Source: Thermoplasmatota archaeon
GTDB lineage: Archaea > Thermoplasmatota > E2 > DHVEG-1
Length of the DNA: 64,000 bases
Assembly (NCBI GenBank): GCA_030619765.1
Contig: JAUXAU010000004.1
Span: forward strand, 5,717 to 69,716
Direction of reading: 5' to 3'
Under the pieces are notes generated by a model. The model saw only the letters and a list, made by a program, of their open reading frames with translations, ran no database searches and had not been told where the DNA came from. Both the position numbers and the translations under genes were made by a program. Shown piece by piece: positions 11,191 to 63,781 of the stretch (positions are counted from its first letter, which is position 1; every line of letters starts with the position of its first letter).

Positions 11191-11206
11191 TTTTCCTCCT
11201 CCAAAT

Positions 11207-45117: not shown

Positions 45118-45156
45118 AAAAATATTAGTTTTAGATTTGAAAATGGAAGAGGTAAA

Positions 45157-48868: not shown

Positions 48869-48943
48869 TATGAAGTTGAAGATTTGGAGGAGGAAAAGGA
48901 AATGAATAACAATAGGGGATTTCTCGCAACAGGTATAATACTA

Positions 48944-50380
48944 TTAATTCTCGGAATATTTTTCGATTTTCTTTAAATCTTTGATTTCAATGTATTTATT
49001 TTTATCAGAACTTGCATCATTGTATTTCATGCCAGTAGCAAATCCAAAATTAAATAGTAAATCTTCTATCTTGCCGTGATAATGGCTATAAGCATTTAAA
49101 CTTCTATGTGTTTTTAGTTCTTGTTTTAGTTTATTATCAAGTTTTTCTATCAATTTATCCTTTTCTTTGGTTGGTATTGCTCTAAACATTAAAATCAATT
49201 TCTTGATTGATTCGATTTGTTCCGCATGATAGGAGTGAATAGCAATTAAACCTAATTCGTGATAATAAATTCGGTTGTCCGGTAAATCAGACATTAAATA
49301 AACTAAGAATTTGAAGAATTTAAGATTACCCCATACCCAAGTGATATTTACTAATCCAGTTGTATAAATTGAACGTAGTCTAGATACATCTGTAGTTGAG
49401 GTTTTAACCAACTCATATCCAAGAGCTGTTATTTTATATTCACTTCTGTTATATTTTTGTATTAGTCCTAATCGTTCTAAATAATTCTTATGTTGACGAA
49501 TAAACCAATCTCTTTTTTGTTCTTCTGTATATCTATGTTTATATGTTATACCTGCCTGTTTTATTATAGAATTGACGTATCTAATGTCTTTTCGACTCGT
49601 TGAGAATGATGCATATCCGTCACTTTTGTATTCTTTACTTTTGATAATTAATTCTATAATTTTTCGTAGTTCCTTTAATTTATCTGTATTAATTATTCCA
49701 TGTCCTGGTAATAAATACCAACCACGCCATTTTTCCAAATTTACAATTTTTTTATTACTTTTAATATATTTTATCCAATCATCTACAAATGTGAGGATTG
49801 TTTTACTATTCTCACCGAAATTATAGGTTCCATCCTCCTTATATTTGATTTTAATATGTTTGGTTTTCTCAACATCTTTGTAATTGTCAATATATTCATC
49901 ATCAATCAATAAAGATTTTTCACTTTCCCATAATTTCCTAAAATATTTTATTTGCTGTTTAATGATCGTGGTTTTTCCCTTAATTATAATGTTTGCTTCA
50001 ATGTTTTTTTCTAATGCACCTTTACTTATATTTGATGATCCAGTAATGGTAATTATATTTGGTTTGGAATGAAATATCCATAATTTTGGATGATATGTTT
50101 TTTGTGGATCTCGATATACTTTGAGTATCACGCCCATCTTCAATAATTCTCTAAGAGCAGTACTCTCAGAGATATTCATATCTTCTCCAAATAATAATTC
50201 AATTTTTCCTCCATCCTGAATAAACTTTTGAAATGTAGGCTTTAAATAATCAACACCAGACCTCCTGACAAATGAAATTCCCATTTGAACCTTTTTCAGA
50301 TTTTCTATTTCAAAGCAATCTATGATTGCTTTTAATGTTGTTTGCCCATTGTCGTTAAAAACAAATACTAAATCCTTCAC
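48944..50380 (-). CDS. PLD-family (Nuc/BfiI-like) nuclease-domain protein
   Basis: 'YHPKLWIFHSKPNIITITGSSNISKGAL' is a degenerate HxK..D..GSxN motif; convergent with the helicase. Confidence 0.45.
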   Translation of the reverse strand: MKDLVFVFNDNGQTTLKAIIDCFEIENLKKVQMGISFVRRSGVDYLKPTFQKFIQDGGKIELLFGEDMNISESTALRELLKMGVILKVYRDPQKTYHPKLWIFHSKPNIITITGSSNISKGALEKNIEANIIIKGKTTIIKQQIKYFRKLWESEKSLLIDDEYIDNYKDVEKTKHIKIKYKEDGTYNFGENSKTILTFVDDWIKYIKSNKKIVNLEKWRGWYLLPGHGIINTDKLKELRKIIELIIKSKEYKSDGYASFSTSRKDIRYVNSIIKQAGITYKHRYTEEQKRDWFIRQHKNYLERLGLIQKYNRSEYKITALGYELVKTSTTDVSRLRSIYTTGLVNITWVWGNLKFFKFLVYLMSDLPDNRIYYHELGLIAIHSYHAEQIESIKKLILMFRAIPTKEKDKLIEKLDNKLKQELKTHRSLNAYSHYHGKIEDLLFNFGFATGMKYNDASSDKNKYIEIKDLKKIEKYSEN

Positions 50381-50578
50381 TCTATTGCTATCTTAATATT
50401 CTTTTATAAAGATTGTGAACATGAATTTTATGATATGCAACATTTTGATAATCCTTTTAACTTTTAACCATTGTTCTATGTTTATATTAAATTTTTTTTG
50501 GAACAACATCCGAATCTAAAAAGGATCACCTATAAAAACCAATTATCTAATCTAAAGTGTTGTATACCATTTATCCTA

Positions 50579-51007
50579 TTATGACCAAACTCCTTTTCTT
50601 TTTGATAAAGAAATCAGGATTTCAATATCTTTGTCATCAATTTCAAGGATATATCCATTCATATGTTTACTCGCTTTTAATAATTTGGAAGAAATGTTTG
50701 GATGTTGTTTTACTAATTTCAACGGAACTGGATTTTCTAATAGACATGTATTTGACAAATCAATTATATATTTTTTACCATTATCATATACTTCAGAAGT
50801 CACGATAGATTTGGCTACAAATGCAGATTTAAACATTTTTACTAGAGTGTTTTCTTTTTTAAGATAATGGAAAATAATGTCACCTTTTTCCACTCGGCTC
50901 ATTATATAAAAAATCTTTTTATTTCGAAATGATATTAAATCTTCCTTACCTTCTAGCTTTTTCTCCAGAGAATCTGTGCCACATTTAACTTCAATCCAAG
51001 TTGTCAT
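50579..51007 (-). CDS. EVE/PUA-like domain protein
   Basis: About 140 aa; 'W...VKCG...GDIIFHY...VAKSIVTSEVYD' pattern resembles an EVE domain. Confidence 0.3.
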   Translation of the reverse strand: MTTWIEVKCGTDSLEKKLEGKEDLISFRNKKIFYIMSRVEKGDIIFHYLKKENTLVKMFKSAFVAKSIVTSEVYDNGKKYIIDLSNTCLLENPVPLKLVKQHPNISSKLLKASKHMNGYILEIDDKDIEILISLSKRKGVWS

Positions 51008-51390
51008 GTTTTTACCTTTTTTTATAATTATATGACATATTGAAGATGAATAGTTGGTATATAGGAGAATGGATAAACATATTGGTATAATTTCTTATTT
51101 TCTAGTATTTATATACTCATTCTCTTTAGCTCCTGTTAAAAATTAGGTTTAGTAGTGCGAATATATTAAATATCTCCTTTTAGATTTGTGAATTGGAGAT
51201 TTCATTTTTTCGGTTCCGAAAGTGCATCGAAATTTCCTGTCTAGGGAGATCTCAACCAACATTCCCTACGGCCCTTATTAACTTATGTTTCTACTTATCT
51301 TATTATCTCATAAAATATGGTGTACTAAAAATTTTCCGGAATGAGAGTTTCCACATGGCAAAAAATTAAAAAGAAAAAATAACGATGAAT

Positions 51391-52110
51391 TTATATCTTT
51401 GACAATTTACTTAATTTCTCTTCTGCTTTTTCAACTTTAGCTTTTAATTCATCTTCATTCAAATCTGGATGGAGTTTCATCATAAAATCGCAAAAATCGA
51501 TAAATGATCGTTGATCGATGTTTGCAATTCGAGTATAACTACCATCTATTGCAGCTCTACCGATTTTACCTGGAGTATAATAACTTACAATATCAAGATT
51601 CTTGTTATAATTTGCCATCAAACCTCGTTCTAAAAATGTGGCATATCCCACAACAACAGTGTCAATAAATTTTTCATATTCAACATATATTTCATGGGCA
51701 GTTAATTCAACGTTAAAAATATCTTCTTTAGTCATACCCTTTTTCTTTGGATATGGATGAGGAACATCGTCAGGCATTTCAGGTCTATGAGTGATCAAAG
51801 TTTGAAAAAAGCTATCTTTCATAATACCAGTATCTGCCACTTTAAATTCCATAAAATATGTGTTTTCTGGATTTTTAGAATCAATGATAAGGACATCTGG
51901 CATATATCTGATGAACTGAACATTCTTAGTATGAGTATCCTCTAAAAGTTTATGAATCTCCTTAGTTAGTATTTCTATCCCATATCGAAAAGCACAAAGG
52001 GGTTTAATAGTAAGAACTCCATCCAACATAATTTGCATCATTTCTTCTGATAATTTCGTTCTTTTATCAAACCCATCTGAAATCATTATACATTCATCTA
52101 ATATTTTCAA
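51391..52110 (-). CDS. candidate restriction endonuclease (PD-(D/E)xK)
   Basis: 'YMPDVLIIDSKNPENTYFMEFKVAD'; divergent from the MTase. Confidence 0.35.
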   Translation of the reverse strand: MKILDECIMISDGFDKRTKLSEEMMQIMLDGVLTIKPLCAFRYGIEILTKEIHKLLEDTHTKNVQFIRYMPDVLIIDSKNPENTYFMEFKVADTGIMKDSFFQTLITHRPEMPDDVPHPYPKKKGMTKEDIFNVELTAHEIYVEYEKFIDTVVVGYATFLERGLMANYNKNLDIVSYYTPGKIGRAAIDGSYTRIANIDQRSFIDFCDFMMKLHPDLNEDELKAKVEKAEEKLSKLSKI

Positions 52111-52203
52111 ATGATTTAAAACCTTTTAATATATACTTTTGACATTCTCATAAAAGAACTTATTAACATTCATTGGGATTATCTTTAGGGGAGCAACAAT
52201 AAA

Positions 52204-53148
52204 ATGGTCAATGAAACGATCATATCCGCAAACAATAATTATTCTGAAGAAAAAGAAATAGGCGAAAATAGAGTTGATCCAAGAAATAAACTAAATGAAT
52301 TAAACGGTAGAAACTGGATTAAAGCAACAAAAAGCATATGGTATAGCAGACCCCCTCGACGGGACGAACTAAAAGAACAACATCCTGCCACATACGCAGA
52401 AAGTGATATTGAGCAATTGATTAAATTTTTTACAAAAGAGGGACAAACTGTATTAGATCCTTTTCTTGGATCTGGTAGCACCTTAATTGCTTGTCACGAT
52501 ACTAAAAGATTTGGAACAGGAATTGAACTCATTGACAAATGGGTTGAAATTTCACAGGAAAGAGTTAAGCAAGTTGAAACTCAGAAGACATTAGATTCAT
52601 TTGCCATAGAGCAAGAAACAACTCAAAAAATCATTCATGGTGATGCTGAAGGGGAATTGAAAAAAATAGAATCAGAATATTTTCATTTCATTGTTACCAG
52701 TCCGCCATATTGGGGGATTTTAAATAAACCACTGGATCATAAGACAAAAAAAGAAAGAGTTGGGAAGGGTTTAGATGTTAGATATAGTGAAGATGAAAAA
52801 GATTTAGCTAATGTTGAGAAGTATTCAGATTTTTTAAAAGCATTACAAAAAACCTGGAAAGCATGCTATAGAGTTTTGAAGAAAAATAAGTACATGTGTA
52901 TAGTAGTTTCTGATTTCAGGCATAAAAATAGATTTATTCTTTATCATGCTGATATTACAAAATCTATGGAAGAAATTGGATTTATTCTAAAGGGAATGAT
53001 AATTTTAGTTCAGGACAGCAAAACACTCTATCCTTATGGGTATCCTTTTGAATATGTGCCAAACATCCATCACCAAAATATTTTAATCTTTAAAAAGGAT
53101 GAAAATAATGAAAAATTAAAGGATATTTCAAATGGTAAGAGAGGGTGA
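52204..53148 (+). CDS. DNA N4-cytosine/N6-adenine methyltransferase
   Basis: Motif I 'LDPFLGSGSTL', motif IV 'VTSPPYWG'. Confidence 0.75.
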   Translation: MVNETIISANNNYSEEKEIGENRVDPRNKLNELNGRNWIKATKSIWYSRPPRRDELKEQHPATYAESDIEQLIKFFTKEGQTVLDPFLGSGSTLIACHDTKRFGTGIELIDKWVEISQERVKQVETQKTLDSFAIEQETTQKIIHGDAEGELKKIESEYFHFIVTSPPYWGILNKPLDHKTKKERVGKGLDVRYSEDEKDLANVEKYSDFLKALQKTWKACYRVLKKNKYMCIVVSDFRHKNRFILYHADITKSMEEIGFILKGMIILVQDSKTLYPYGYPFEYVPNIHHQNILIFKKDENNEKLKDISNGKRG

Positions 53149-54694
53149 AGTTTGTTGCGGTGTTGTTAAATGGCTTGTTTCTAAGCAACAAGAACTAGAT
53201 CGAGAAACAGGTAATAAAAAACATCTAGCTTTTTGGGCAGATAAAAAAACCTTTGATGGAATAAAGAGGCATTTAGGGATTTCAAGTACTTCTAATTTAG
53301 ACCATACAAAAACTTCAATCTCTAACAATTTCAATGTCGATTCAGACCTACTGGAGAGGTGTTGGCTTGAAATTGAAGATATTAGGATCCCTTATTCTAC
53401 TTCAAGTGATGTTCTGCCAGATTTTGTGGCTCATATATTTGACACATCTTCAAATATTTCAGAGACATGGGCTATTGAGGCAAAACCTAATGATATAGCC
53501 TCCATTCAAAGAGGTTATTTCCAAGTAATTTCTCATGCATTAGGTGTTTCAAAATCATACATTGCCATTCCTAGTGATTTAGAGGAGGCTGTTAAAAATC
53601 TTTACTATTACAATTATGGTATATTATTATATGATCCCACAAATCATACAATTGAAGAAAAATCAAAGCAAATCATTACAAGAGCCAATCCAGAAATTAT
53701 GGGCTACCTAACTAATTATCTGAGAGATTATCATTTTAAGAATCCGTCACATTTTCAAAGTCCATATGGCATTCCTTTTAGAGTTTCAAGAATATCTATT
53801 AGTGCTCGGGACAGCCTTTTGGTGTTAGCATTAAAACTATATTTTGATCATAATACGGATAATATTACCAACAGGGAGCCAAAAATTTTTGATTTGAAAA
53901 GAATGAGTTTTATTGATAAAAATGAGAACATAACTGATGATGCAAAATTCTTTTTTGAGATACTAGAAAAATATATCGAAGAGAAAATTACTTATCGACC
54001 AAGGGGAAGAACAAGAGCAATAGTAAATTATTTTATTAATAGCATTCCTTCTGTACAAGGAATGAATTTATTATATGAGGGGAATCCTTTTGGAAATTTT
54101 GTTTCGAATATTTTACACATGTTCTTAATATCGAACAATAGCTTGAAAGAATTAATTGGATGGATTAAACAAGCGACAGAAGAATCTGGAGGGGAGCACC
54201 CTATTTTTTCACATGTATTTACTATAGGGCTTAAAAGAAACCCCCTTTTACTTAGAGATATGATGCTTTCTCCTCATTTAAACACTACCACTCCTACATT
54301 CCATAATCCTCTAACAAGAGGAGGGAATGTTTGTGTAAATTGTGATCATCAGGATAAGAAAGGATTTTGCTTTTGTACAAATATTAGTTTAGTAAATCAT
54401 GTTGATTTTCAGAAGAAATATGGTGATTTCATTGAGATCTGGAGAAAACATGTACCTTATGAGTTCTTTACTGATCCTGCCTTACACAAACGATTTATTA
54501 AAATTCATACTTATTCAAATGGAAGAGAAGTTGAAATATTAGCTCCAGGATTTGTCAAATGTCTGATTCATACTGATACAAATAAAACAACAGGTATACT
54601 AAGACATTCTAAAATCCTAGGTAAAGATGTTAGAAGCGGTATAAAAGCAGAGCTTTGCACTAGATTTGATCCTTATTATTTAGAAACCACATAG
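53132..54694 (+). CDS. large hypothetical protein, translationally coupled to the MTase; PD-ExK-like motif and a C-terminal Cys cluster
   Basis: 'LPDFVAHIF...ETWAIEAK'; 'CVNCDHQDKKGFCFC'; ATG overlaps the MTase stop. Confidence 0.3.
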   Translation: MVREGEVCCGVVKWLVSKQQELDRETGNKKHLAFWADKKTFDGIKRHLGISSTSNLDHTKTSISNNFNVDSDLLERCWLEIEDIRIPYSTSSDVLPDFVAHIFDTSSNISETWAIEAKPNDIASIQRGYFQVISHALGVSKSYIAIPSDLEEAVKNLYYYNYGILLYDPTNHTIEEKSKQIITRANPEIMGYLTNYLRDYHFKNPSHFQSPYGIPFRVSRISISARDSLLVLALKLYFDHNTDNITNREPKIFDLKRMSFIDKNENITDDAKFFFEILEKYIEEKITYRPRGRTRAIVNYFINSIPSVQGMNLLYEGNPFGNFVSNILHMFLISNNSLKELIGWIKQATEESGGEHPIFSHVFTIGLKRNPLLLRDMMLSPHLNTTTPTFHNPLTRGGNVCVNCDHQDKKGFCFCTNISLVNHVDFQKKYGDFIEIWRKHVPYEFFTDPALHKRFIKIHTYSNGREVEILAPGFVKCLIHTDTNKTTGILRHSKILGKDVRSGIKAELCTRFDPYYLETT

Positions 54695-54741
54695 ATATAG
54701 AAAGTTTATTAATACCTAAGACATTTTACCTTGGGGGTTGA

Positions 54742-55011
54742 ATGGCAATAGAGCATAAGTTATTTGGAACTCAGCAGAAATATGGTTATGTATGGTGGAA
54801 TGCAAAGGATAATGATAAATTCAAGAAAGTTCTACCAAAGGAAAAATTTGTGTTATATTTTCATGAAAAAAAAGTTGGTGAACGCATGGTTGATTGGAGT
54901 AGACGTCGATTTATTCTTGGAAAGAGGGTCATGCGAGAACATTTGAAAAAGAACGATACCATAAAAATTTCTAATCCAACTGGAAATAAAGTTGTCATAA
55001 GCAAAAGATAA
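54742..55011 (+). CDS. hypothetical protein
   Basis: ORF track; followed in another frame by a copy of the Zn-ribbon mini-ORF (55011..55115). Confidence 0.3.
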   Translation: MAIEHKLFGTQQKYGYVWWNAKDNDKFKKVLPKEKFVLYFHEKKVGERMVDWSRRRFILGKRVMREHLKKNDTIKISNPTGNKVVISKR

Positions 55012-55180
55012 TCCGTAAAATCTGCGATGTAAACGAAACAGATAATCCTGATGGGATTTGCGATGATTGTAAGTTTTCGATAATTAGTAATGATGATATA
55101 CCACCAGATATATAACCAAAAAATTCCGTGATTTTGCTATATCGATTTTATAAGGAATATTCCTAATTTTAATTATGAAA

Positions 55181-55903
55181 TTAAAAAATTATGATTTGAA
55201 GTACAACCGGTGTAAGGCATCTCATAGCACTTTCATAAGCCTGAATATTTACATCAGATGACGTAAGTGGAAATTTTTCCTCCAATCTTTGATGATGTTC
55301 CTCTCCGATTTTCTCAATAATACTCTTGAGTTCTATACTTGATATACCAATGAGATTCTTTCCCCCAAAAAAAGAAATCATTACGTTTGTATTTTTCATT
55401 TTTTTTATTTTTGAAAGGTCTATCTCTTTAAAAGTTCCATCTCTATAAACGAAATGTTCAGAATTTGCATCCTCTAATACGTCTCTGCTCACTTGAGAAA
55501 ATTTCTTTATAAAATCTATATAAAATATTTTGTTTATTTTATATACAGGGGATTTCTTTAAACGTTCTTTTCTAAGGAATTCGATTTTATAATGTGTCAT
55601 CTTATTTAGAAGCTTGAGCATCTGCCTTTTTGAAGAGATGCTATTTGGATTAATTCTACCATCATCGATTAATTTCTTCAATCTCTCACGATTCTTTGAA
55701 TTTTTAAAAAATTCTATAGTTCGGTTCCAAAGTTTTAATTGTGATTGATTATCATTGTATATCAATTTATTAATATCTTTATCCTTGACCATAATCTGTT
55801 CAATTATTGCTGAAGTTAATGACGTATCATGAAATTCTTCAAAAAGGTGAAATAAGTCTTTATAATATGGTTTTGTCATTATATTCTTTTTTGTTATTGT
55901 CAT
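55181..55903 (-). CDS. hypothetical protein
   Basis: ORF track. Confidence 0.35.
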   Translation of the reverse strand: MTITKKNIMTKPYYKDLFHLFEEFHDTSLTSAIIEQIMVKDKDINKLIYNDNQSQLKLWNRTIEFFKNSKNRERLKKLIDDGRINPNSISSKRQMLKLLNKMTHYKIEFLRKERLKKSPVYKINKIFYIDFIKKFSQVSRDVLEDANSEHFVYRDGTFKEIDLSKIKKMKNTNVMISFFGGKNLIGISSIELKSIIEKIGEEHHQRLEEKFPLTSSDVNIQAYESAMRCLTPVVLQIIIF

Positions 55904-56003
55904 ATAAATTAAGATATATGGTGACCATTATTTATTTATTTTGGTGTTTTTTAGTCACTAAATTTAAAATATAATTAATTCATATTAGTATTTATTGATT
56001 AAC

Positions 56004-56123
56004 ATGAAAAAAAGAGTTGTATTCACCGTCGATAAAAAAAATCTTGAACAACTCGATGGAAAAAGAGGGCTAATACCACGTAGCACTTATGTAAATTACC
56101 TTATCGAAGAGCACTGCAAATAG
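56004..56123 (+). CDS. 39-aa ribbon-helix-helix (CopG/Arc-like) DNA-binding protein
   Basis: MKKRVVFTVDKKNLEQLDGKRGLIPRSTYVNYLIEEHCK has a beta-strand then two helices in the RHH pattern; not in the ORF track. Confidence 0.4.
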   Translation: MKKRVVFTVDKKNLEQLDGKRGLIPRSTYVNYLIEEHCK

Positions 56124-56169
56124 AATTAAACGAATAATTTGAGGAATTATCGAATGACTGGAAACACTT

Positions 56170-56358
56170 TGTACGCACAAAAAGTCCAAAAGTACCTTTT
56201 TAGTACGCAAATCCCTCCTATAAGAGTAAGTAACGTAGTAAATAACCTATATTATATACGTATTATTTACTTAAAGTTCCTTACTACATTCTTTACTATC
56301 CCTCCCTATATCTGCGTACAACCAAACGCCTTTTTAGAAAATCATGCGTACAACCATT
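56170..56358. promoter_or_regulatory. iteron-like repeat set: two direct TTGTACGCA-like sites and two inverted TGCGTACAACCA sites
   Basis: gtacgca at 56172 and 56204; tgcgtacaacca at 56303 and 56336; spacing of about 32 nt within each pair. Confidence 0.45.
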
Positions 56359-56374
56359 TTGTACAGGGGGTACT

Positions 56375-57136
56375 GTGAGCATCTACACCTATTTTACAGA
56401 TACAATAATACATACGATATTCCCAGACGTAAAGAGAGTTCGTCCCCTAAACCCAAAGGCTAATGCCACTCTGCTATACACAGAGGAACTAAAACAAATC
56501 ATTTACATCAGGGAGAGCAAGAATAAACAAGCATTGAGGATAAGGGATTTACGGAAGTACAATGAAAGGGCAGTCAGGAACATGAGACAGCTTATGAAAA
56601 ACAAATTTGGTAAAAAGAGGGGGATCAAATTATATAATGAAGCAGACAAGATCAATGTTCTTGTAGTGGAGAGAACACTCAATACCATATGGAGATTGCA
56701 TAGAGCGTTAAACCGCCTAGATAATTCCGCGACATACAACAAAAAAACGATTCATATGATATTTGACAAGACAAAAACAAAAATCCCAGAAGAGAAGATG
56801 GCATCGCTTATCTATAAAAGCTTGTACACTAAATTTGACCGATACAAGGAAAACATAGAAACCAGCATGAAAAAGAAAAACAAGGGCAAGGATAAAGACA
56901 AGCAGATAAAGCCATTCAATGAACTAAAAGAAAAGCTCGAATCCTTAGACTGGACAGTGAGAATGCTAAATCATGAATACTGCAAACTTGCAGGAAAGAC
57001 ACTGATCCCCAGAAAGCTAAAGTCAGAGATAGACTTTGAGATGGAGAGACTACATAAAGCCAGTATAATCAAGAACGATAAAAGCTCAATTAAGTATGAT
57101 AAAGAACCCTATAAAGCGAATACGGAGGTACAATAA
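56375..57136 (+). CDS. hypothetical basic protein downstream of the RHH/iteron module
   Basis: ORF track; K/R-rich; start uncertain. Confidence 0.4.
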   Translation: MSIYTYFTDTIIHTIFPDVKRVRPLNPKANATLLYTEELKQIIYIRESKNKQALRIRDLRKYNERAVRNMRQLMKNKFGKKRGIKLYNEADKINVLVVERTLNTIWRLHRALNRLDNSATYNKKTIHMIFDKTKTKIPEEKMASLIYKSLYTKFDRYKENIETSMKKKNKGKDKDKQIKPFNELKEKLESLDWTVRMLNHEYCKLAGKTLIPRKLKSEIDFEMERLHKASIIKNDKSSIKYDKEPYKANTEVQ

Positions 57137-57551
57137 GAAAATGACACCCAACCAACAATGGAATAACGACCATACAGCCCTTATCACAGCCTCTACGCTG
57201 CAAACACAGACACCCAAATCCCACACATCAAAGACCGACAACACCCCTCAAAACATGCTACAGAGAATCTTGTTAAAACAATATGAGTATGGTTTCAAAG
57301 ATGAACATTGGAGAGGAGAGAAAAAATCATTCGATTTGATAAAAAAAATTGAAAGGATAAAAAGAAAATTCAAAATATCGATTCTGTTTTGTACAGAATG
57401 TCCAATATTACTTTAAGCATTATAAGGAGAAAATAGAGAAAAATGCAATACTTTTCAATACTCTATAAAAATGTCCTAAAAGTGTCCTAAAAGTGTCATG
57501 TTTTTTAAGAATTAATGGAATTTTCGGAGTCTATAAAAAAGAGATGTTTAT

Positions 57552-57872
57552 TCATTCTTCCAATATTTCTAAGGTTCTTTTGTCCACCTTACAACTAAAC
57601 CAGTGTTCTGTTTCTCCATACCATAAATCCTGACGGTAATAATGTACTACTATGCTATAGTAACTTCCCCTATCCATACATTGCTCAGATACCACATTCC
57701 CATAATCAACATATAACACACCATATTTGTCTTTTAGATAAGCTATACCTACACCTAAGGCTATGTCCTTGTTTGGATCATATTCTTCAGGTTCCTGTGT
57801 ATTCATGCATCCACTCAACTCAATAGCCAAAAGCAGAATGATTATTCCAATTATCAATATCTTTTTTCTCAT
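57552..57872 (-). CDS. small lipoprotein-like secreted protein
   Basis: 'MRKKILIIGIIILLLAIELSGC' lipobox-like signal. Confidence 0.45.
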   Translation of the reverse strand: MRKKILIIGIIILLLAIELSGCMNTQEPEEYDPNKDIALGVGIAYLKDKYGVLYVDYGNVVSEQCMDRGSYYSIVVHYYRQDLWYGETEHWFSCKVDKRTLEILEE

Positions 57873-57990
57873 TCTTATCTTTAAATAATAATCAGTCTAA
57901 TCCTATATAAAGTACTACTAAATAGGTAGTACTATTTAGTTTAACAGTGGTATTTGTACTGATATATTGTTTAACTATCGGTAGATACAA

Positions 57991-58158
57991 ATGGCACTAC
58001 AAGGTAAGGGCACTATTTATCAGCACGTTAAGGGTAAGATGTATGTTTATATTCCATCTGTTGTCCGTGATGACAGTCAGTTTCCTTTTAACCGTGGGGA
58101 AAAAGTGAACGTTAGTATCCATGGAAATAGGCTAATTGTAGAAAAAGAAAAATCTTAA
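57991..58158 (+). CDS. 55-aa AbrB/SpoVT/MazE-like small protein
   Basis: 'GKMYVYIPSVVRDDSQFPFNRGEKVNVSIHGNRLIVEK' fits the swapped-hairpin pattern; not in the ORF track. Confidence 0.3.
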   Translation: MALQGKGTIYQHVKGKMYVYIPSVVRDDSQFPFNRGEKVNVSIHGNRLIVEKEKS

Positions 58159-58413
58159 TAATTTTTAGACAACCATTTTAATTCTAATGAACAATGTCCA
58201 ATAAGTATCAAAATCACAATCAGTTTTCTCAGTATGTGCTTGTATAAAAGATCATTGAAATTACTCCTGTTGAATAGGAGGTAGAAAGCAGGTTTTTTAA
58301 AGAAAAAGATGGTTATTCAATATTAATCACATATTTTCCGGAATATCATCTGAACTTATAATAGATACTTTGCAATCATCGCATATCCCATTGGAATTAT
58401 TAAAGTCTATTAT

Positions 58414-59235
58414 TTATGATTTTACCAGTTCACGTAACAAGATTTTATCCTTCTCTGAATTCAATGCATGCATTTTTCTATGACAATTTGGGCAAAGGGC
58501 AACAGTATTATCGATTGCATCATCCCCACCCTGTGACAACCATTGAATATGATGACTCTCGAGAAAGGGTTCACCGTCTTTTTTGCTGAAAGGAGCAGCA
58601 TTCTTGCATAATTGACAAAAACCGTTTGCTCTACGTTTGACAAATTCTACAACATCTTGATTTCTATCGTATTGTTTGGAAATAACGTGTCGGACTCCAC
58701 ATGTTCTAGGTGCAGACTGGACTTTTTTCCATAATGATTCGTCTGATGATTTTTTTGCTTGTCTCTCTCTTATAGTTAGTTTTCTATGAAAAACGTCTTC
58801 AGTAATAATTGAGGATGTTGTATGGTCAATAAGTTTTAATGGAAAAATCCACACTTTGCGAATGTATTGTTTTACATCTGGTTGTTTTTCAACATAAGGT
58901 TTAGTAGCCAACATGACCCTACCTTGATAAACATATCTACCTGGGTCAAAAACCTCAAATAAAAATACATCCACTCCGTTAGTTTGAGATTCATTTAATG
59001 TTCTGTTTTGTGCAAAAGAGAGACTTTGGTCACCTGTAAGTCCCATACCTGTATAATGAAAAACATCATTCTCCCATCTATCCTCATAAATAGATTTAGT
59101 ATGATCTGAAACAATGACAAGACAGTTTTTTCTTCTACTTCTTCTCATCCCTCCTTGTGGACTACATTTGAATATCCGACAAATATCATCATTTCTTAGT
59201 ATATCACCTTGTTTTAGTTCAGGGTCAAACTCCAT
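58414..59235 (-). CDS. SRA-like domain + HNH endonuclease (candidate modification-dependent type IV restriction enzyme)
   Basis: C-terminal 'CQLCKNAAPF...ESHHIQWLSQGGDDAIDNTVALCPNCHRKMH'; N-terminal 'HYTGMGLTGDQ...AQNRTLNESQTNG...GRYVYQGRV' parallels SRA 'TYTGSGGRD...TAEQ..KLTNTN...YDGIYKV'. Confidence 0.5.
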   Translation of the reverse strand: MEFDPELKQGDILRNDDICRIFKCSPQGGMRRSRRKNCLVIVSDHTKSIYEDRWENDVFHYTGMGLTGDQSLSFAQNRTLNESQTNGVDVFLFEVFDPGRYVYQGRVMLATKPYVEKQPDVKQYIRKVWIFPLKLIDHTTSSIITEDVFHRKLTIRERQAKKSSDESLWKKVQSAPRTCGVRHVISKQYDRNQDVVEFVKRRANGFCQLCKNAAPFSKKDGEPFLESHHIQWLSQGGDDAIDNTVALCPNCHRKMHALNSEKDKILLRELVKS

Positions 59236-59328
59236 TCTATATTTCCTCCTCCAAATCTACAATTTTGTAATAATTCCTACTTTAAAAACAATTACACCGT
59301 TATTTAATTACAACTATTTTGAAAACAG

Positions 59329-60108
59329 TTAAGGGAATTTATACTCCAATCTTCCTGTTTTGTTATACTGTTCAATGAGATATAAAGCAGATTTTGGATG
59401 AACTTGAATTGAGCCACAACCAAGAAATTCCTGCAATCGTCTTCCATTACTGTATGATTGAATAAAGGGTTCTAACTTCTTTGGTATACTTGGCTTATAT
59501 TTTCCATTCAGTCTCTGTATCCCTACAAATGCAAATTTAGGAGAATTTTCAGATACCACTATTTTGTTTAAATCATCGAATAATGCTTCATAATAATCTA
59601 AACCAGCGGCGATTAAGACAATATCTTCTGAATTTGAGATATTAACTAACTCATGAATTGATTTAGGGTGAGAGGTCTCAATTATACCAGTATTACTAAG
59701 AAAATTCCACCACTGTTTTTTTACTTCGCCTTTATCTGAGCCATAAAAATAGTCCTGGTTATTTACTGAGTCATCAACTCCCGATTTGAACGTAGCATGA
59801 TAACCAGATATTTTTTCTTTGGCATTAATAAGACCAAATCCACAAGATACTATCCATAATTGACTTGGTCCATTAATTCCTCTAAATGCCTCCATTGATG
59901 CATTCCACATAGAGCCTTTGTATATACTCGATGCTTCAGGTAAAAATGTTGATGAATTCATATGATTGGTGAGAGTATTTTTCCATTCTTTAAATAATTC
60001 TTCAGTATCATTTCTAATTTCCTTTTGAAGTAAATTATCAATGGCATTCTTAACCGAAGGTCCTTCATAATTTTTGCTACCAACACAGGTGACTATTAAA
60101 TGAAACAT
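59329..60108 (-). CDS. hypothetical protein (third gene of an uncharacterised operon)
   Basis: ORF track; no family recognised. Confidence 0.4.
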   Translation of the reverse strand: MFHLIVTCVGSKNYEGPSVKNAIDNLLQKEIRNDTEELFKEWKNTLTNHMNSSTFLPEASSIYKGSMWNASMEAFRGINGPSQLWIVSCGFGLINAKEKISGYHATFKSGVDDSVNNQDYFYGSDKGEVKKQWWNFLSNTGIIETSHPKSIHELVNISNSEDIVLIAAGLDYYEALFDDLNKIVVSENSPKFAFVGIQRLNGKYKPSIPKKLEPFIQSYSNGRRLQEFLGCGSIQVHPKSALYLIEQYNKTGRLEYKFP

Positions 60109-60122
60109 AGAATAATCCCCCC

Positions 60123-60530
60123 CTAATGCTCCAATTTGTCCAGGATTAAATAATACCTTAATCCTCTACCAACTTTTCTTGATTCGATATAAGGCTGCTT
60201 TGAAATGAGTGTGAATGAAACTGCGGTATGCCTATTTTGCCCACCATGTAAATCCTTCTGCAAGTATCCTGCTGAAATATATTTTGGATTTTGTAAATCT
60301 CTGAATATATCTACAAAATCTCCCGTTGGTATATCCTCAAAAGGAAGTTTGCTATCCTCTCTTTCAACACGAATATGGGAGCCTGTTACACCTTTTACCC
60401 AAAACCGTTTCCTTTGAGAGTTCGTATACATCTCGGTAGCATTTTCACGGATTTTCCGCTCAACAAAATCTTTAACATCGTTCCAAAGGCGTTCATTATC
60501 AATATTTCTTTCCATTTTATCTGCTCCCAA
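60123..60530 (-). CDS. hypothetical protein (middle gene)
   Basis: ORF track; overlaps the upstream gene by 14 nt. Confidence 0.4.
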   Translation of the reverse strand: MGADKMERNIDNERLWNDVKDFVERKIRENATEMYTNSQRKRFWVKGVTGSHIRVEREDSKLPFEDIPTGDFVDIFRDLQNPKYISAGYLQKDLHGGQNRHTAVSFTLISKQPYIESRKVGRGLRYYLILDKLEH

Positions 60531-61233
60531 CCCATTCTTTTGTTTTAGTTATAGCGTTTGAGATGGTTATTTTATCCTTTTCATTTATTTCATCATCCAT
60601 AAGATGCTGCACCAACCATAAGCCACTTTCCTTAATTTTCTGAATGGGCGAATAATTTCCCAACCAGTTATTCGATGGTCTGCAAAAAGCACAACTTGCT
60701 ACAGTCCCAATAAGTGAACTTTCTAACCCCGTGCCACCCATTCTTTTTATCTGACTATCCATCATGATGAATTTAAAGGAAAAATTCTCCCTTAATATCT
60801 GCGTGACCTCTGATTCAATTGTCTTCTCTTTCTGAATATCTCGAAGATGCCCATAACGCTCTCGATTCTCTCTCGGTGTAAAATCTATCTCCCAGATTTC
60901 CAAATAATCATCCTTCTCTTTATTTAACAATGACCGCCCTATATTTTTTCTAAAGATGCTTCTATCCTTTGGTGCCGCTTTCATCTGATTAAAACTCATT
61001 TTCCTATCGTTAAACAAAAAGTGGTCGTTTATCCTGCTTCTAAAATTGTTCCCTTTGTGCGTTCCAATTCTAACCATTCTTGGTAAATTGCCACCATGTC
61101 CCCAATTTTCTCCGTCCTCATAGAAAAAGTAGATGCCGTTTTGCGGTAAATCCTCTAAACAGAATGGATATTTAAAAATCGGCAATGCTTTTAATTGACG
61201 ATGTAGCCATTCACAACTATTCGTAATTACCAT
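60517..61233 (-). CDS. GIY-YIG-like nuclease-domain protein (first gene)
   Basis: 'NGIYFFYEDGENWGHGGNLPRMVRIGTHKG...R...H' resembles the GIY-(x10-17)-YIG core. Confidence 0.35.
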   Translation of the reverse strand: MVITNSCEWLHRQLKALPIFKYPFCLEDLPQNGIYFFYEDGENWGHGGNLPRMVRIGTHKGNNFRSRINDHFLFNDRKMSFNQMKAAPKDRSIFRKNIGRSLLNKEKDDYLEIWEIDFTPRENRERYGHLRDIQKEKTIESEVTQILRENFSFKFIMMDSQIKRMGGTGLESSLIGTVASCAFCRPSNNWLGNYSPIQKIKESGLWLVQHLMDDEINEKDKITISNAITKTKEWVGSR

Positions 61234-61627
61234 TCTCCATTTGATATTCTTTCATCGTGTAAGACAGCCCATAAATAAGATGGACCTCTCACTATCTGGG
61301 AAATCTGACCAGGTCCACTAATGGGCAACAGTTTAGAGGCTTTCTTAATATCAACCTTCGATATAGCGTATTCAGTTCTACTTGGAATAAACATGTTTCC
61401 TACTATCTTATATGTAAATGGTAATCCCCTTTTTGTGAAAAACTCTTCTCCAGCATGTTCTATAATTCGACCCCATACCTCTTCAAAAGATGTATTTGAT
61501 ATGCTAATACCTCCTTTTTATTCTCATTATCTAAATGTACATTTTTAAATAATTTTCGTTCGCATTACTGATATATAACAATATATATACAATCTAACCT
61601 ACAAATATATATAAAACTTGAAATCAA

Positions 61628-61735
61628 TCACATATTTGGTAGAATATCATCATCACTAATTATTGAAACCTTACAATCATCACAAATCCCGTCAGGGTTA
61701 TCTGTTTCGTTTGTGCCACATATTTTGCAGATCAT
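61628..61735 (-). CDS. 35-aa zinc-ribbon mini-protein MICKICGTNETDNPDGICDDCKVSIISDDDILPNM
   Basis: Found by hand; CxxC-x10-CxxC; degraded paralogous copies at 58327..58413 and 55011..55115. Confidence 0.35.
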   Translation of the reverse strand: MICKICGTNETDNPDGICDDCKVSIISDDDILPNM

Positions 61736-61748
61736 ATTTAACCAAAAA

Positions 61749-62720
61749 CTAGTCTAATTTTCCTATATACTTTTTAGTAGCCTTCTCTAAACTAATCATA
61801 GCATCTATCATTTTATCTTGTATATCGTCCCATCTGTCTTCATCTTTTAATCCTATTTCATCAAATGTATAAGAAATTCTTGATGCCTTCCTATCATCAA
61901 GCTTCTCCCACAGTAGTTTTTCACCAAATTCTTTTTCAATTTCTCCCTTATGTTTAAACAGTCGATCAAATCTTTTTTTATTAATTAAGACATCCTCGTC
62001 CTCTTTTCCTTTATCAAGATAGATCTCAACTCTCCCATTCTTATACGTTACTTCATAAATATATGCAATTCCTGATTTACCTGCTCCTGTTGCTATCCAA
62101 GAATATTTACTTGGGGAAACATTAGAAAACAAATTAGTTTTATCTTTAGATTTCGTTAATAATTTTGTCCAGAAATCTTTTCTAAGTTTATATCTTTGTG
62201 CAGATTCTATCCTCTCTTCACCAAGTTGTTTTGCTTCAATAGTTGGACCGGTTACAATAGTAAATAGAGGTGCAGCTATCGGTTGATCTCCGATTTTAAT
62301 TGCCTCAAGTTTAACCAAATAAAATAATACGTCTCCAGGAGTATATTTGTTTAACCATTCAATAACCTGAACATGTTCATCTCTTGGTTCTTTTGTAATC
62401 CATATTGCAGTGTTTGCTTCGAGATTTATCATGTATGTAAGTATCTTTCCTAAATGATCATGATCTGTTTTTTCTAACTGATTCTCGATTATTACTTTAT
62501 TGTCATTTTCATCCTCAGCAAAAAGGTCTAATTTAAAAGGACCAACCTTTTCCTCTCTTTTAACAACGTTAAAATTTTTGTCAAGGACATCGTTAAGATA
62601 ATCAATATTTTCTTCTAACCATTTTGTAAATTCCTTATCTTCCTTTTTCCAAATTTCTCTTAAAGGAACTTTCTTGATTTTTCCAATTGGATTTTCAAAT
62701 TCCATTTCTTCCTCCTCCAA
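61749..62720 (-). CDS. PD-(D/E)xK-family (DUF4268-like) nuclease-fold protein
   Basis: 'FKLDLFAEDENDNKVIIENQLEKTDHDHLGK' (D..E.Q...D..HLG signature). Confidence 0.45.
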   Translation of the reverse strand: MEEEEMEFENPIGKIKKVPLREIWKKEDKEFTKWLEENIDYLNDVLDKNFNVVKREEKVGPFKLDLFAEDENDNKVIIENQLEKTDHDHLGKILTYMINLEANTAIWITKEPRDEHVQVIEWLNKYTPGDVLFYLVKLEAIKIGDQPIAAPLFTIVTGPTIEAKQLGEERIESAQRYKLRKDFWTKLLTKSKDKTNLFSNVSPSKYSWIATGAGKSGIAYIYEVTYKNGRVEIYLDKGKEDEDVLINKKRFDRLFKHKGEIEKEFGEKLLWEKLDDRKASRISYTFDEIGLKDEDRWDDIQDKMIDAMISLEKATKKYIGKLD

Positions 62721-62761
62721 ATCTACAATTTCATTTTAACTATCAGGATGGTTATTCATGT

Positions 62762-63781
62762 TTATCCCAGAAAAGTATATTCTTTAGTTATTGGGTCAAT
62801 TGCAGTTTTTTCTCCAGTTATTCCTGCATCATAACCAGGAAATCCATAGTCACCAGCAGTAGGGTCTAAGACCACACAGTTAACACCATCTATCCTGTAC
62901 GAGATTATTTCTTCCTCCCCAAATAATTCATAAAATGAAGGTCTAAAATAAAACTCAATAAACACACTAACAGATGCATCTTGCCATTTCTCGTTAGAAA
63001 GTATTATCCCACCATATTTATCCAAGTAATGACAGGTGTCGGTAACTGTTAATATATTCTCACATTCCCAGTCAGCATATTGAATAAAAGTTTTACATTC
63101 ATTCAATTTATCAAAATCATCCCTTGAAGGAACTACATATAAATGCAATGGCTGATTTGAATCAATACTGTAACTTATATTCAAATAATTAAAATAGTCT
63201 TTCAATGACGAACCATTTCCTCCATAATACCAATTATGACCTCCCTCAAGAACAAAGGATTGCTCATGAGTTTGCCTTATACTCTCTCCCAAATCATTTT
63301 CAACTTGTTCTAATAGTGAAGGTTCAACATAGTTCCATAGCTCTCTTGCATTAATGTCATATGCAAGAGCATAAGCATGGTCTTCAGTTAATACTAAATA
63401 TGCTTTAATACCGATATTTTCTAATAAAGAGATTAATAGTATTGAGAGGTCTTCACAATCCCCTCCTCCAATATCTATAGTCTCTTGTGGGCTTTGGATG
63501 AGTTCAACTCCAACGGGGTCACTTAGATAATTAAAGTTCTCTACGATGTGTCTGTATAATGCATTTACTTGACACTCTCTATCACCAGCAGTACAATTCT
63601 TAACGATAGAATTTGCATATGCTCTTAGGTCAATATCATTTAGAACAATTTTGTTGAGATATGGTTCTGCACCTTGAAGCACTGGGTCTACTTCAATCTG
63701 TTCAAATAACTCATTACATCCACTCAATCCAACAGATAAGAGCAGAACAGCTATTCCTATTCTCACTAATTGTTTTTTCAT
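62762..63781 (-). CDS. transglutaminase-like lipoprotein
   Basis: Signal/lipobox 'LLLSVGLSGC'; 'GGGDCEDLSILLISLL' transglutaminase-core cysteine. Confidence 0.55.
   Translation of the reverse strand: MKKQLVRIGIAVLLLSVGLSGCNELFEQIEVDPVLQGAEPYLNKIVLNDIDLRAYANSIVKNCTAGDRECQVNALYRHIVENFNYLSDPVGVELIQSPQETIDIGGGDCEDLSILLISLLENIGIKAYLVLTEDHAYALAYDINARELWNYVEPSLLEQVENDLGESIRQTHEQSFVLEGGHNWYYGGNGSSLKDYFNYLNISYSIDSNQPLHLYVVPSRDDFDKLNECKTFIQYADWECENILTVTDTCHYLDKYGGIILSNEKWQDASVSVFIEFYFRPSFYELFGEEEIISYRIDGVNCVVLDPTAGDYGFPGYDAGITGEKTAIDPITKEYTFLG

What the first reader, a model, noticed from the sequence alone, without database searches (positions are those of the whole stretch)
58414..59235. SRA-like + HNH fusion: candidate modification-dependent (type IV) restriction endonuclease
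The N-terminal region parallels the SRA (SET and RING-associated) 5mC-binding domain blocks. The C-terminus is a canonical HNH. The protein sits beside a methyltransferase-containing R-M module.
Basis: partly seen in the sequence, partly recalled or inferred. Interest (0 to 1): 0.55.

Follow-up and report, generated by a model that had tools for sequence, protein, structure and literature searches.

The report
Archaeal SRA-HNH modified-DNA restriction enzyme
The gene encodes an ordinary member of a very widespread, already catalogued family of defence nucleases that most likely cut foreign DNA carrying methylated or hydroxymethylated cytosine; here it sits in a defence island of an uncultured archaeon.

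Summary
The ORF is real: 58414-59235, minus strand, 273 aa, intact.

- **C-terminus:** a canonical HNH nuclease (Pfam HNH E 5e-11). It is closest to the E. coli McrA nuclease domain (E 2e-18). H229, N243, H252 and the CxxC...CxxC zinc site are all present.
- **N-terminus:** residues 1-140 match no SRA model in the local Pfam copy and are not significantly similar in sequence to UHRF1. A confident AlphaFold model (pLDDT 91.8) matches ScoMcrA (E 5e-14), TagI, SUVH5, UHRF1/2 and MspJI SRA domains. The identical database protein carries Pfam PF26348 "SRA_ScoMcrA".
- **Family:** it is huge. More than 539 loci were confirmed in representative bacterial and archaeal genomes, and members are often auto-named "5-methylcytosine-specific restriction protein A".

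It is therefore a new member of a known kind. Substrate specificity (5mC/5hmC) is inferred, not shown.

"Beside an R-M module" is loose. The methyltransferase (N6/N4 type) lies 5.3 kb away. The direct neighbours are other defence candidates: a DpdC-like gene, PDC-M57B and PDC-S11.

About 55% of relatives, including the closest ones, are coupled to a MutT/NudG-like NUDIX gene. This window has none.

The parts
58414..59235 (-). Complete gene, 273 aa: SRA(ScoMcrA-type)-HNH candidate type IV restriction endonuclease
   Evidence: ORF listing. Full-length homologues, 3480 hits. AF2 model with pLDDT 91.8.
58816..59235 (-). N-terminal SRA-like (PUA-superfamily) domain, aa 1-140. It is the putative reader of a flipped modified cytosine. 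Invariant residues Y50, D52 and Y61-T62-G63 are encoded at 59038-59094.
   Evidence: Foldseek against PDB: ScoMcrA, TagI, SUVH5, UHRF1/2, MspJI. Precomputed PF26348 SRA_ScoMcrA. Invariant columns in the 46-sequence alignment. Motif alignments to TagI D58/Y67 and ScoMcrA 313-329 and to UHRF1 Y466/Y478. Translation check.
58714..58800 (-). Two-helix linker, aa 146-174, between reader and nuclease domains
   Evidence: DSSP on the AF2 model: helices at 146-162 and 165-174.
58450..58698 (-). McrA-type HNH (beta-beta-alpha-Me) nuclease domain, aa ~180-262. Pfam core is aa 207-257 = 58465-58617. Zinc ligands are C207, C210, C248, C251. Catalytic residues are H229, N243, H252.
   Evidence: Pfam HNH E 4.9e-11. 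EcoKMcrA 6ghc E 1.9e-18 and ScoMcrA 5zmm. PADLOC mREase_IV E 2.2e-20. All listed residues are invariant in A1. Translation check.
59242..59274 (-). Leader with Shine-Dalgarno-like GGAGGAGG directly 5' of the start codon. The motif TGTAGATTTGGAGGAGG also occurs in front of other genes of this genome.
   Evidence: Sequence. Five matches in the window against 0.23 expected. Repeat pairs I5-I7.
58322..58400 (-). Start-less relic of a small zinc-ribbon ORF immediately 3' of the gene. It is a partial copy of the element at 61628-61735 and 55004-55111.
   Evidence: Repeat family D1 and inverted pairs I1, I2. Alignment A2.

Best explanation
The gene encodes a stand-alone, NTP-independent, modification-dependent (type IV) restriction endonuclease of the SRA-HNH class. 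Its reader domain is of the ScoMcrA type and its nuclease domain of the E. coli McrA type. Proposed mechanism: the N-terminal SRA-like domain binds duplex DNA and flips a modified cytosine (5mC and/or 5hmC) into a pocket. The walls of the pocket are Y50 and Y61, and D52 reads the N3/N4 edge of cytosine. The C-terminal zinc-stabilised HNH domains, probably paired in a homodimer as in TagI, EcoKMcrA and ScoMcrA, then nick or cut both strands a short distance away using Mg2+ or Mn2+. The host's own DNA is spared because it lacks that modification. Viruses or plasmids carrying methylated or hydroxymethylated cytosine are destroyed. Shown here: the ORF, the two domains, the fold, the conserved catalytic and zinc residues, family membership and breadth, and the defence-island setting in an archaeon. 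Inferred: which modification is read, base flipping, dimerisation, cleavage geometry and actual activity.
For: HNH domain: Pfam E 4.9e-11; EcoKMcrA E 1.9e-18 and ScoMcrA HNH; PADLOC 'type IV methyl-directed restriction enzyme' model E 2.2e-20. SRA fold: AF2 pLDDT 91.8 and pTM 0.83; Foldseek ScoMcrA 4.7e-14, TagI 1.2e-8, then SUVH5/UHRF1/UHRF2/MspJI SRA domains, all at probability 1.00. The identical protein P0001 and all 120 listed homologues carry PF01844 + PF26348 (SRA_ScoMcrA), and many are source-named '5-methylcytosine-specific restriction protein A'. Y50, D52, W54, Y61, G63, M64, G65, Q70, Q76, N77 and the HNH/zinc residues are invariant in 46 homologues at 52-86% identity. The D52-to-Y61 spacing of 9 equals TagI D58-Y67 and UHRF1 D469-Y478, which are the carboxylate and second aromatic wall of the 5mC pocket (PMC6212794). 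The same N-terminal domain (1089 representative clusters at E<=1e-3) is also fused to McrB-type AAA_5 motors, to EVE and to DpnI_C domains, so it behaves as a portable modified-DNA reader. ScoMcrA, TagI and the ScoA3IV group cleave 5mC/5hmC DNA and restrict T4gt (PMC7461809, PMC6212794, PMC6765204). Setting: an island starting at a tyrosine integrase (41566-42681) with lowered GC, a UvrD/GajB-like helicase, a PLD nuclease, an R-M-like module, a DpdC-like gene, PDC-M57B and PDC-S11. The only methyltransferase seen is N6/N4 type, so no 5mC conflict is visible in the window.
Against: No biochemical data were found for any stand-alone ~275-aa member of this SRA_ScoMcrA-HNH subfamily in the searchable literature. 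The crystallographers of ScoMcrA state that its SRA lacks the NKR finger and thumb, that the UHRF1/SUVH5 5mC-contacting residues are not conserved, and that it may read 5mC differently (PMC6224610). The best viral structural match is the ScoMcrA-like SRA of pleolipovirus HHPV3. According to PMC10101028 the SRA domain of enzyme HHPV4I is 100% identical to an HHPV3 protein, showed no 5mC/5hmC/g5hmC dependence and looks inactive. Sequence similarity to canonical SRA is not significant. My Y50/D52/Y61 pocket mapping rests on motif alignment, not on a residue-level superposition. Only 64 kb of the host genome is visible, so a host C5-methyltransferase cannot be excluded.
Confidence: 0.72

Rival explanations
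1. Same architecture, different trigger. The ScoMcrA-type SRA domain reads a modification other than 5mC/5hmC, for example a hypermodified pyrimidine or another base modification of archaeal viruses. Alternatively it reads modified cytosine without classical base flipping.
For: ScoMcrA-SRA is reported to lack the thumb and NKR finger and the canonical 5mC contacts (PMC6224610). This protein also lacks the NKR-finger segment: the 'GDQSLSFAQNRTL' stretch aligns by eye to UHRF1 D498-L508, with residues 484-496 absent (sequence, UHRF1 sequence verified). M64 replaces the Ser/His found after YTG in UHRF1 and TagI. No subfamily member has been characterised.
Against: The invariant carboxylate D52 with canonical spacing to Y61-T62-G63 is the signature that selects the cytosine Watson-Crick edge in UHRF1 and TagI (PMC6212794). 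The frequent partner NUDIX resembles pyrimidine dNTP / CTP pyrophosphohydrolases as well as MutT, which points to a cytosine derivative.
Confidence: 0.15
2. The SRA-like domain is a degenerate or structural module (dimerisation, DNA clamp). The protein would then be a modification-independent HNH nickase or nuclease, or an inactive relic.
For: The SRA of HHPV4I appears functionless for cytosine modifications, and its deletion leaves activity intact (PMC10101028). In ScoMcrA the SRA domain mediates dimerisation (PMC6224610). Type IV HNH enzymes show strong star activity in Mn2+ (PMC7461809).
Against: An unregulated nuclease would be toxic. About 25 N-terminal positions are invariant across bacteria and archaea, including the pocket-like Y/D/Y set, which argues for a ligand-binding function under selection. 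There is no wH or other alternative reader domain in the 273 aa. The gene is intact with all catalytic residues.
Confidence: 0.08
3. The nuclease is the effector of a multi-gene system formed with the upstream genes on the same strand: PDC-M57B-like at 60517-61233, a 135-aa ORF at 60123-60530, and a DpdC-like/DUF6884 gene at 59329-60108.
For: The four genes are co-oriented. The first three overlap or abut one another, and only 93 nt separate the last two. PADLOC scores are DpdC E 3.3e-36, PDC-M57A E 4.7e-5 and PDC-M57B E 5.8e-64. A 79-nt repeat brackets exactly this 3.3-kb block, at 58322-58400 and 61623-61701.
Against: None of 87 homologue loci contains a DpdC-like, M57B-like or S11-like gene. 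None of 5 M57B-homologue loci contains an SRA-HNH gene. The gene has its own leader and RBS. The family's conserved partner, when there is one, is a NUDIX gene.
Confidence: 0.05

Closest known systems
ScoMcrA (Sco4631, PDB 5ZMM), SBD-SRA-HNH type IV enzyme of Streptomyces coelicolor
   Same: Best structural match over both the SRA and HNH domains (E 4.7e-14). Same Pfam reader family, SRA_ScoMcrA. Same HNH with a four-Cys zinc site (PMC6224610).
   Different: This protein is 273 aa against 561 aa. It has no head domain and no sulfur-binding domain, so no phosphorothioate sensing is expected. The NCBIfam PT-DNA_restrict hit covers the HNH region only, at 19.9 bits against a cutoff of 180. Identity is only ~19-20% in the structural alignment. 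This family keeps a Y-x-D...YTG motif closer to classical SRA.
TagI / ScoA3IV (Sco5333) / TbiR51I SRA-HNH type IV enzymes (PDB 6GHS)
   Same: Same two-domain order and size (SRA at the N-terminus, HNH at the C-terminus, ~280-310 aa). Foldseek E 1.2e-8. The motif D-x8-YTG aligns to the TagI pocket residues D58, Y67 and T68 (PMC6212794).
   Different: Those enzymes carry the canonical SAD_SRA-type domain and are mostly actinobacterial or proteobacterial (PMC6765204). The sequence match to TagI is weak (whole-sequence E 0.002-0.2, HNH stretch only). TagI uses CxxC + CxxD zinc ligands, whereas this protein has CxxC + CxxC.
EcoKMcrA (PDB 6GHC)
   Same: Closest nuclease domain by sequence: E 1.9e-18, about half of 81 aligned residues identical. 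It is a type IV, 5mC/5hmC-dependent enzyme that dimerises through the HNH domain (PMC6182155).
   Different: The EcoKMcrA reader is the unrelated NEco domain, which binds modified cytosine without flipping (PMC7145662). Only aa 185-265 of this protein align to it.
HHPV4I (SRA-wH-HNH) of an archaeal pleolipovirus, and the HHPV3 'ScoMcrA-like SRA domain' protein
   Same: The HHPV3 protein is the best viral structural match (E 3.8e-10). It comes from the archaeal mobilome and has a ScoMcrA-like SRA. In HHPV4I that SRA precedes an HNH domain.
   Different: HHPV4I has an extra DpnI-like winged-helix domain that confers Gm6ATC dependence, and its SRA appears inactive (PMC10101028). This protein has no room for a wH domain.
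MspJI-family and McrBC-type type IV systems
   Same: They use an SRA-like or other PUA-superfamily reader of modified cytosine. MspJI is a Foldseek match at E ~1e-4. The SRA_ScoMcrA domain itself occurs fused to McrB-type AAA_5 motors.
   Different: Those systems use a PD-(D/E)XK nuclease or a GTP-dependent motor plus McrC, instead of a fused HNH.

Membership tests
SRA-HNH modification-dependent (type IV) restriction endonucleases | N-terminal domain with the SRA (PUA-superfamily) fold | tested here: met
   AF2 pLDDT 91.8. Foldseek against PDB: ScoMcrA 4.7e-14, TagI 1.2e-8, SUVH5 SRA TMt 0.64-0.71, plus UHRF1/2 and MspJI.
SRA-HNH modification-dependent (type IV) restriction endonucleases | Profile match to an SRA family model (Pfam SRA_ScoMcrA, PF26348) | tested here: met
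   Precomputed Pfam on the 100%-identical P0001 and on all 120 listed homologues; family name printed. The model is absent from the local Pfam copy, so I could not rescore it myself.
SRA-HNH modification-dependent (type IV) restriction endonucleases | Sequence match to canonical SAD_SRA/YDG (PF02182) | tested here: not met
   No Pfam hit for aa 1-172 at E<=10. hhalign of A1 against UHRF1 SRA gave probability 4% over 24 columns. Pairwise local alignment z=1.6. Only the motifs YED / YTGxG / DQxL..NxTL are shared.
SRA-HNH modification-dependent (type IV) restriction endonucleases | Flipped-base pocket: two aromatic walls plus a carboxylate that reads the cytosine edge | tested here: inconclusive
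   Y50, D52 and Y61 are invariant and align to TagI D58/Y67 and UHRF1 Y466/Y478. The first Tyr sits one residue closer to the Asp than in TagI or UHRF1. No residue-level superposition was possible. ScoMcrA-SRA is reported to lack the canonical contacts (PMC6224610).
SRA-HNH modification-dependent (type IV) restriction endonucleases | C-terminal HNH beta-beta-alpha-Me nuclease with catalytic H, N, H and a structural zinc site | tested here: met
   PF01844 E 4.9e-11. H229, N243, H252, C207, C210, C248 and C251 are present and invariant.
SRA-HNH modification-dependent (type IV) restriction endonucleases | Cleavage depends on 5mC/5hmC in the substrate | not testable with these tools
   Needs biochemistry or in vivo restriction assays.
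SRA-HNH modification-dependent (type IV) restriction endonucleases | No cognate C5-cytosine methyltransferase next to the gene | tested here: met
   The nearest methyltransferase is at 52204-53148, 5.3 kb away. It is PF01555 N6_N4 type with a TSPPY motif. The rest of the host genome is not visible.
EcoKMcrA family | NEco N-terminal reader domain | tested here: not met
   Sequence alignment to 6ghc covers only aa 185-265. The N-terminus is SRA-like instead.
Phosphorothioate-dependent SBD-(SRA-)HNH enzymes (ScoMcrA/SprMcrA/EcoWI) | Sulfur-binding domain (SBD) | tested here: not met
   The 273-aa protein is filled by SRA + linker + HNH. NCBIfam PT-DNA_restrict scored 19.9 bits against a cutoff of 180, on the HNH region only.
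PADLOC candidate system PDC-M57 (as an extra component) | Conserved co-occurrence with PDC-M57A/B genes | tested here: not met
   0 of 87 SRA-HNH loci carry M57B-like or DpdC-like genes. 0 of 5 M57B loci carry an SRA-HNH gene.

The most novel reading that the evidence does not exclude
The stand-alone SRA_ScoMcrA-HNH enzymes normally work as a two-gene module with a translationally coupled MutT/NudG-like NUDIX pyrophosphohydrolase. That partner would destroy 5-methyl- or 5-hydroxymethyl-dCTP. This could stop salvaged modified nucleotides from entering host DNA and so prevent self-restriction, or it could starve phages that build modified DNA. I found no description of this pairing in the searchable literature. 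The archaeal copy in this window would then be a NUDIX-less derivative.
Probability: 0.2. Interest if true: 0.55.

Novelty: new member of a known kind. Interest (0 to 1): 0.25.

Why it matters
For the window itself the result matters little beyond annotation. It adds an archaeal (Thermoplasmatota-like MAG) member to a large family of McrA-like type IV restriction enzymes, and it marks 41.5-63 kb as an integrase-bounded defence island.

The family is of modest wider interest for three reasons:
- Its ScoMcrA-type reader domain has never been seen bound to modified DNA.
- I found no biochemical characterisation of a stand-alone ~275-aa member.
- More than half of its members, across bacteria and archaea, are coupled to a MutT/NudG-like NUDIX gene whose role in modification-dependent restriction appears unstudied.

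A small, thermostable or archaeal 5mC/5hmC-dependent nuclease could also be useful as an epigenomics reagent, as MspJI, AbaSI and TagI are.

Tried and rejected
1. **Canonical SRA at sequence level.** This gave nothing significant. The local Pfam copy has no hit for aa 1-172 at E<=10. phmmer and hmmsearch against PDB give only sub-threshold motif matches in the N-terminus. hhalign against UHRF1 gave probability 4%. Smith-Waterman gave z=1.6. I therefore rely on the fold and on Pfam PF26348.
2. **Exact look-up of the protein's contig.** It failed: 'not on record'. The host was inferred instead from ArcTGT homologues.
3. **A missing NUDIX partner.** tblastn of six partner NUDIX proteins against the whole window found nothing better than E 0.45.
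4. **Linkage to the upstream DpdC-like/PDC-M57B genes.** Rejected.
5. **NUDIX-SRA-HNH fusions as a Rosetta stone.** The 400-490-aa relatives have an N-terminal extension with no NUDIX or other hit in the local Pfam, so there is no support from that side.
6. **The leader TGTAGATTTGGAGGAGG as an island-specific cassette signal.** Rejected, because an identical copy precedes a gene outside the island at 11195-11211.
7. **Sigma-70 promoter and terminator scan.** Uninformative for an archaeon: fewer hits than in shuffles.
8. **Rfam scan of the window.** Only a tRNA was found.
9. **Literature searches.** Searches for NUDIX + SRA/HNH/type IV, for PDC-M57 and for PF26348 returned nothing relevant.

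Full report
**Observation**

The window contains an intact ORF at exactly 58414..59235 on the minus strand. It is 273 aa with an ATG start. A GGAGGAGG Shine-Dalgarno-like sequence lies just upstream. Database homologues align over 96-100% of its length and are 270-280 aa long, so the gene model is sound.

**C-terminal domain**

- Pfam HNH (PF01844) matches aa 207-257 at E 4.9e-11.
- Against PDB sequences the best hit is the nuclease region of E. coli McrA (6ghc, E 1.9e-18, aa 185-265). ScoMcrA (5zmm) follows, and TagI is much weaker.
- PADLOC's 'type IV methyl-directed restriction enzyme' model matches the same region at E 2.2e-20.
- The catalytic H229, N243 and H252 and the four zinc cysteines (C207, C210, C248, C251) are present. 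They are invariant in a 46-sequence alignment of homologues at 52-86% identity.

**N-terminal domain**

Sequence evidence is weak. The local Pfam copy gives no hit for aa 1-172 even at E<=10. PDB sequence and profile searches give only sub-threshold motif alignments: 'HYTGMGLxGDQ' to ScoMcrA 313-329 and 'DRW..YTG' to TagI 58-74. I verified a UHRF1 SRA sequence against 2pb7. hhalign of the family profile against it aligned 24 columns at 4% probability. A local pairwise alignment had z=1.6 against shuffles.

Fold evidence is strong. An AlphaFold2 model built with the 46-sequence alignment is confident, with pLDDT 91.8 and pTM 0.83. It shows a beta-rich domain at aa ~30-135, two linker helices at 146-174, and the HNH domain. 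Foldseek against the PDB gave the following, all at probability 1.00:

| Match | Score |
|---|---|
| ScoMcrA, SRA+HNH (5zmm) | E 4.7e-14 |
| TagI (6ghs) | E 1.2e-8 |
| EcoKMcrA (6ghc) | E 6.9e-8 |
| ScoMcrA SBD-SRA (5zmn) | E 8.3e-7 |
| SUVH5 SRA, isolated domain | target-normalised TM 0.64-0.71, rmsd ~4 A |
| KRYPTONITE, SUVH6/9, UHRF1/UHRF2 SRA, MspJI | further matches |

The 100%-identical database protein P0001 and all 120 listed homologues carry precomputed Pfam PF01844 + PF26348. Later outputs name PF26348 'SRA_ScoMcrA'.

**Pocket**

In TagI and UHRF1 the flipped 5mC sits between two tyrosines (TagI Y55 and Y67; UHRF1 Y466 and Y478). Its Watson-Crick edge is read by an aspartate (TagI D58; UHRF1 D469) (PMC6212794).

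In this family Y50, D52, Y61, T62 (nearly invariant) and G63 are conserved. The D52-Y61 spacing of 9 equals that in TagI and UHRF1. Y50 lies one residue closer to the Asp than in those proteins. The long NKR finger is absent.

I could not superpose coordinates, so the pocket assignment is an inference.

Two published caveats apply:
- The ScoMcrA crystallographers say its SRA lacks thumb and finger and the canonical 5mC contacts, and may read 5mC differently (PMC6224610).
- The best viral structural match is the ScoMcrA-like SRA protein of pleolipovirus HHPV3 (E 3.8e-10). An SRA 100% identical to an HHPV3 protein occurs in the enzyme HHPV4I, where it appears inactive. The m6A dependence of HHPV4I comes from an extra winged-helix domain that the present protein lacks (PMC10101028).

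**Family breadth and architectures**

- The family is very large. More than 539 tblastn-confirmed loci occur in GTDB representative genomes, from Bacillus, Paenibacillus, Pseudomonas and Staphylococcus to Methanoregula, Bathyarchaeota and Methanobacteriota.
- There are 102 plasmid records and a few phage records.
- Many members are auto-annotated as 5-methylcytosine-specific restriction protein A.
- The N-terminal domain alone finds 1089 representative clusters at E<=1e-3. In some it is fused to McrB-type AAA_5 motors, once together with an EVE domain, and to DpnI_C domains. This fits a portable reader of modified DNA.
- Characterised relatives cleave 5mC/5hmC DNA and restrict T4gt: ScoMcrA (PMC7461809) and TagI/ScoA3IV/MsiJI/VcaCI (PMC6212794, PMC6765204).
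- I found no characterisation of a stand-alone ~275-aa SRA_ScoMcrA-HNH member.

**Context in the window**

The host is an archaeon. An archaeosine tRNA-guanine transglycosylase with C2 and PUA domains lies at 25578-27548. Its named closest homologues are MAGs labelled Thermoplasmatales (84% identity).

A tyrosine integrase gene at 41566-42681 follows CoaBC. GC then falls to 0.29 between 44 and 56 kb.

The region beyond contains:
- a UvrD/GajB-like helicase and a PLD-family nuclease;
- an N6_N4 methyltransferase (52204-53148, TSPPY motif) overlapped by a 520-aa ORF of unknown family;
- the SRA-HNH gene;
- upstream of it on the same strand, a DpdC-like/DUF6884 gene (59329-60108), a 135-aa ORF, a PDC-M57B-like gene (60517-61233) and a PDC-S11-like gene (61749-62720).

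So the gene lies in a defence island. The methyltransferase is 5.3 kb away, is not C5 type, and is not evidence for or against anything.

**Is the nuclease part of a larger system?**

None of 87 homologue loci holds a DpdC-like, M57B-like or S11-like gene. None of five M57B-homologue loci holds an SRA-HNH gene. I conclude that it is autonomous.

What is conserved next to the family is a 130-145-aa NUDIX gene (PF00293 + NUDIX_4):
- 47 of 87 loci have one directly adjacent on the same strand (36 upstream, usually overlapping or abutting the start; 11 downstream).
- 32 loci have none, and 4 are truncated.
- The closest relatives of the window's protein (66-68% identity) all have it.
- The partners score about equally against MutT and the pyrimidine (deoxy)NTP diphosphatase NudG, below both equivalog cut-offs. 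They also match CTP pyrophosphohydrolase structures.
- From my own knowledge, E. coli NudG (Orf135) hydrolyses CTP, dCTP and 5-methyl-dCTP.
- The window has no NUDIX gene anywhere.
- I found no paper describing this pairing.

**Verdict**

The observation and the interpretation are essentially right. The object is a new, archaeal member of a known and already catalogued kind (an SRA_ScoMcrA-HNH, McrA-like type IV restriction enzyme). Family membership is well supported. Specificity for 5mC/5hmC, base flipping and dimeric cleavage are inferred from relatives. Interest is low to moderate. The most interesting loose ends are at family level: the uncharacterised reader mechanism and the NUDIX partnership.

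Noticed in passing
Homologue loci L001-L087 (e.g. L083 5562-5999, L001 5607-6008, L002 5616-6011, L003 5557-5985); absent from the window: A MutT/NudG-like NUDIX gene (PF00293 + NUDIX_4, 130-145 aa) is directly adjacent on the same strand in 47 of 87 SRA_ScoMcrA-HNH loci. It is upstream and overlapping the start in 36 and downstream in 11, across bacteria and archaea and on Priestia plasmids. The window's gene has lost or never had this partner. No literature on the pairing was found.
   Followed up: partly
window 55004-55111 (+), 61628-61735 (-), 58322-58400 (-): There are three copies of a ~108-nt element encoding a 35-aa zinc-ribbon-like peptide (MICKICGTNETDNPDGICDDCKVSIISDDDILPNM). Only the copy after the PDC-S11-like gene is intact. 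The copy after the 54742-55011 gene has lost its ATG and first Cys. The copy after the SRA-HNH gene lacks its 5' half. Each lies immediately 3' of a defence gene, and two of them bracket the 3.3-kb block from M57B to SRA-HNH. They may be a trace of module shuffling by recombination.
   Followed up: partly
window 59245-59261 (-), 62711-62727 (-), 11195-11211 (-), 46365-46381 (+), 48877-48893 (+): A conserved leader, TGTAGATTTGGAGGAGG, lies directly 5' of the start codons of at least four genes, inside and outside the island. There are 5 matches against 0.23 expected. It is probably a genome-typical strong translation-initiation region.
   Followed up: partly
window 41566-42681 (+) and 43900-63000: A tyrosine integrase sits next to CoaBC, followed by a drop in GC to 0.29. 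The region then holds a run of defence-type genes: a UvrD/GajB-like helicase (46388-48868), a PLD-family nuclease (48944-50380), an R-M-like module, the SRA-HNH gene, a DpdC-like gene, PDC-M57B and PDC-S11. This looks like an integrated defence island in an archaeal genome.
   Followed up: partly
window 59329-60108 (-), 60123-60530 (-), 60517-61233 (-), 61227-61394 (-): A DpdC-like/DUF6884 protein (PADLOC DpdC E 3.3e-36) and a PDC-M57B-like protein (E 5.8e-64; a GIYFFYE motif suggests a GIY-YIG-like nuclease) are separated by a 135-aa ORF with no family. They are preceded by a short ORF whose stop overlaps the M57B start. No DpdA/DpdB genes are nearby. The function is unknown.
   Followed up: partly
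window 51391-52110 (-), 52204-53148 (+), 53132-54694 (+): The methyltransferase has motif I (DPFLGSGST) before a TSPPY catalytic motif, which hints at N4-cytosine rather than N6-adenine specificity. The overlapping 520-aa ORF and the divergent 239-aa ORF have no family hits, but both contain D...E-x-K strings that could be PD-(D/E)XK nuclease motifs.
   Followed up: no
window 57991-58158 (+): A 55-aa ORF lies in the 540-nt gap downstream of the SRA-HNH gene (MALQGKGTIYQHVKGKMYVYIPSVVRDDSQFPFNRGEKVNVSIHGNRLIVEKEKS). By eye it resembles an AbrB/SpoVT-type swapped-hairpin DNA-binding domain. It has no Pfam hit.
   Followed up: partly
Representative proteins P0244, P0258, P0250, P0275: The SRA_ScoMcrA-type domain is also found fused to McrB-type AAA_5 motors (one with an additional EVE domain) and to DpnI_C/HEAT-repeat proteins of 1000-1400 aa. 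These are multi-reader type IV architectures.
   Followed up: partly
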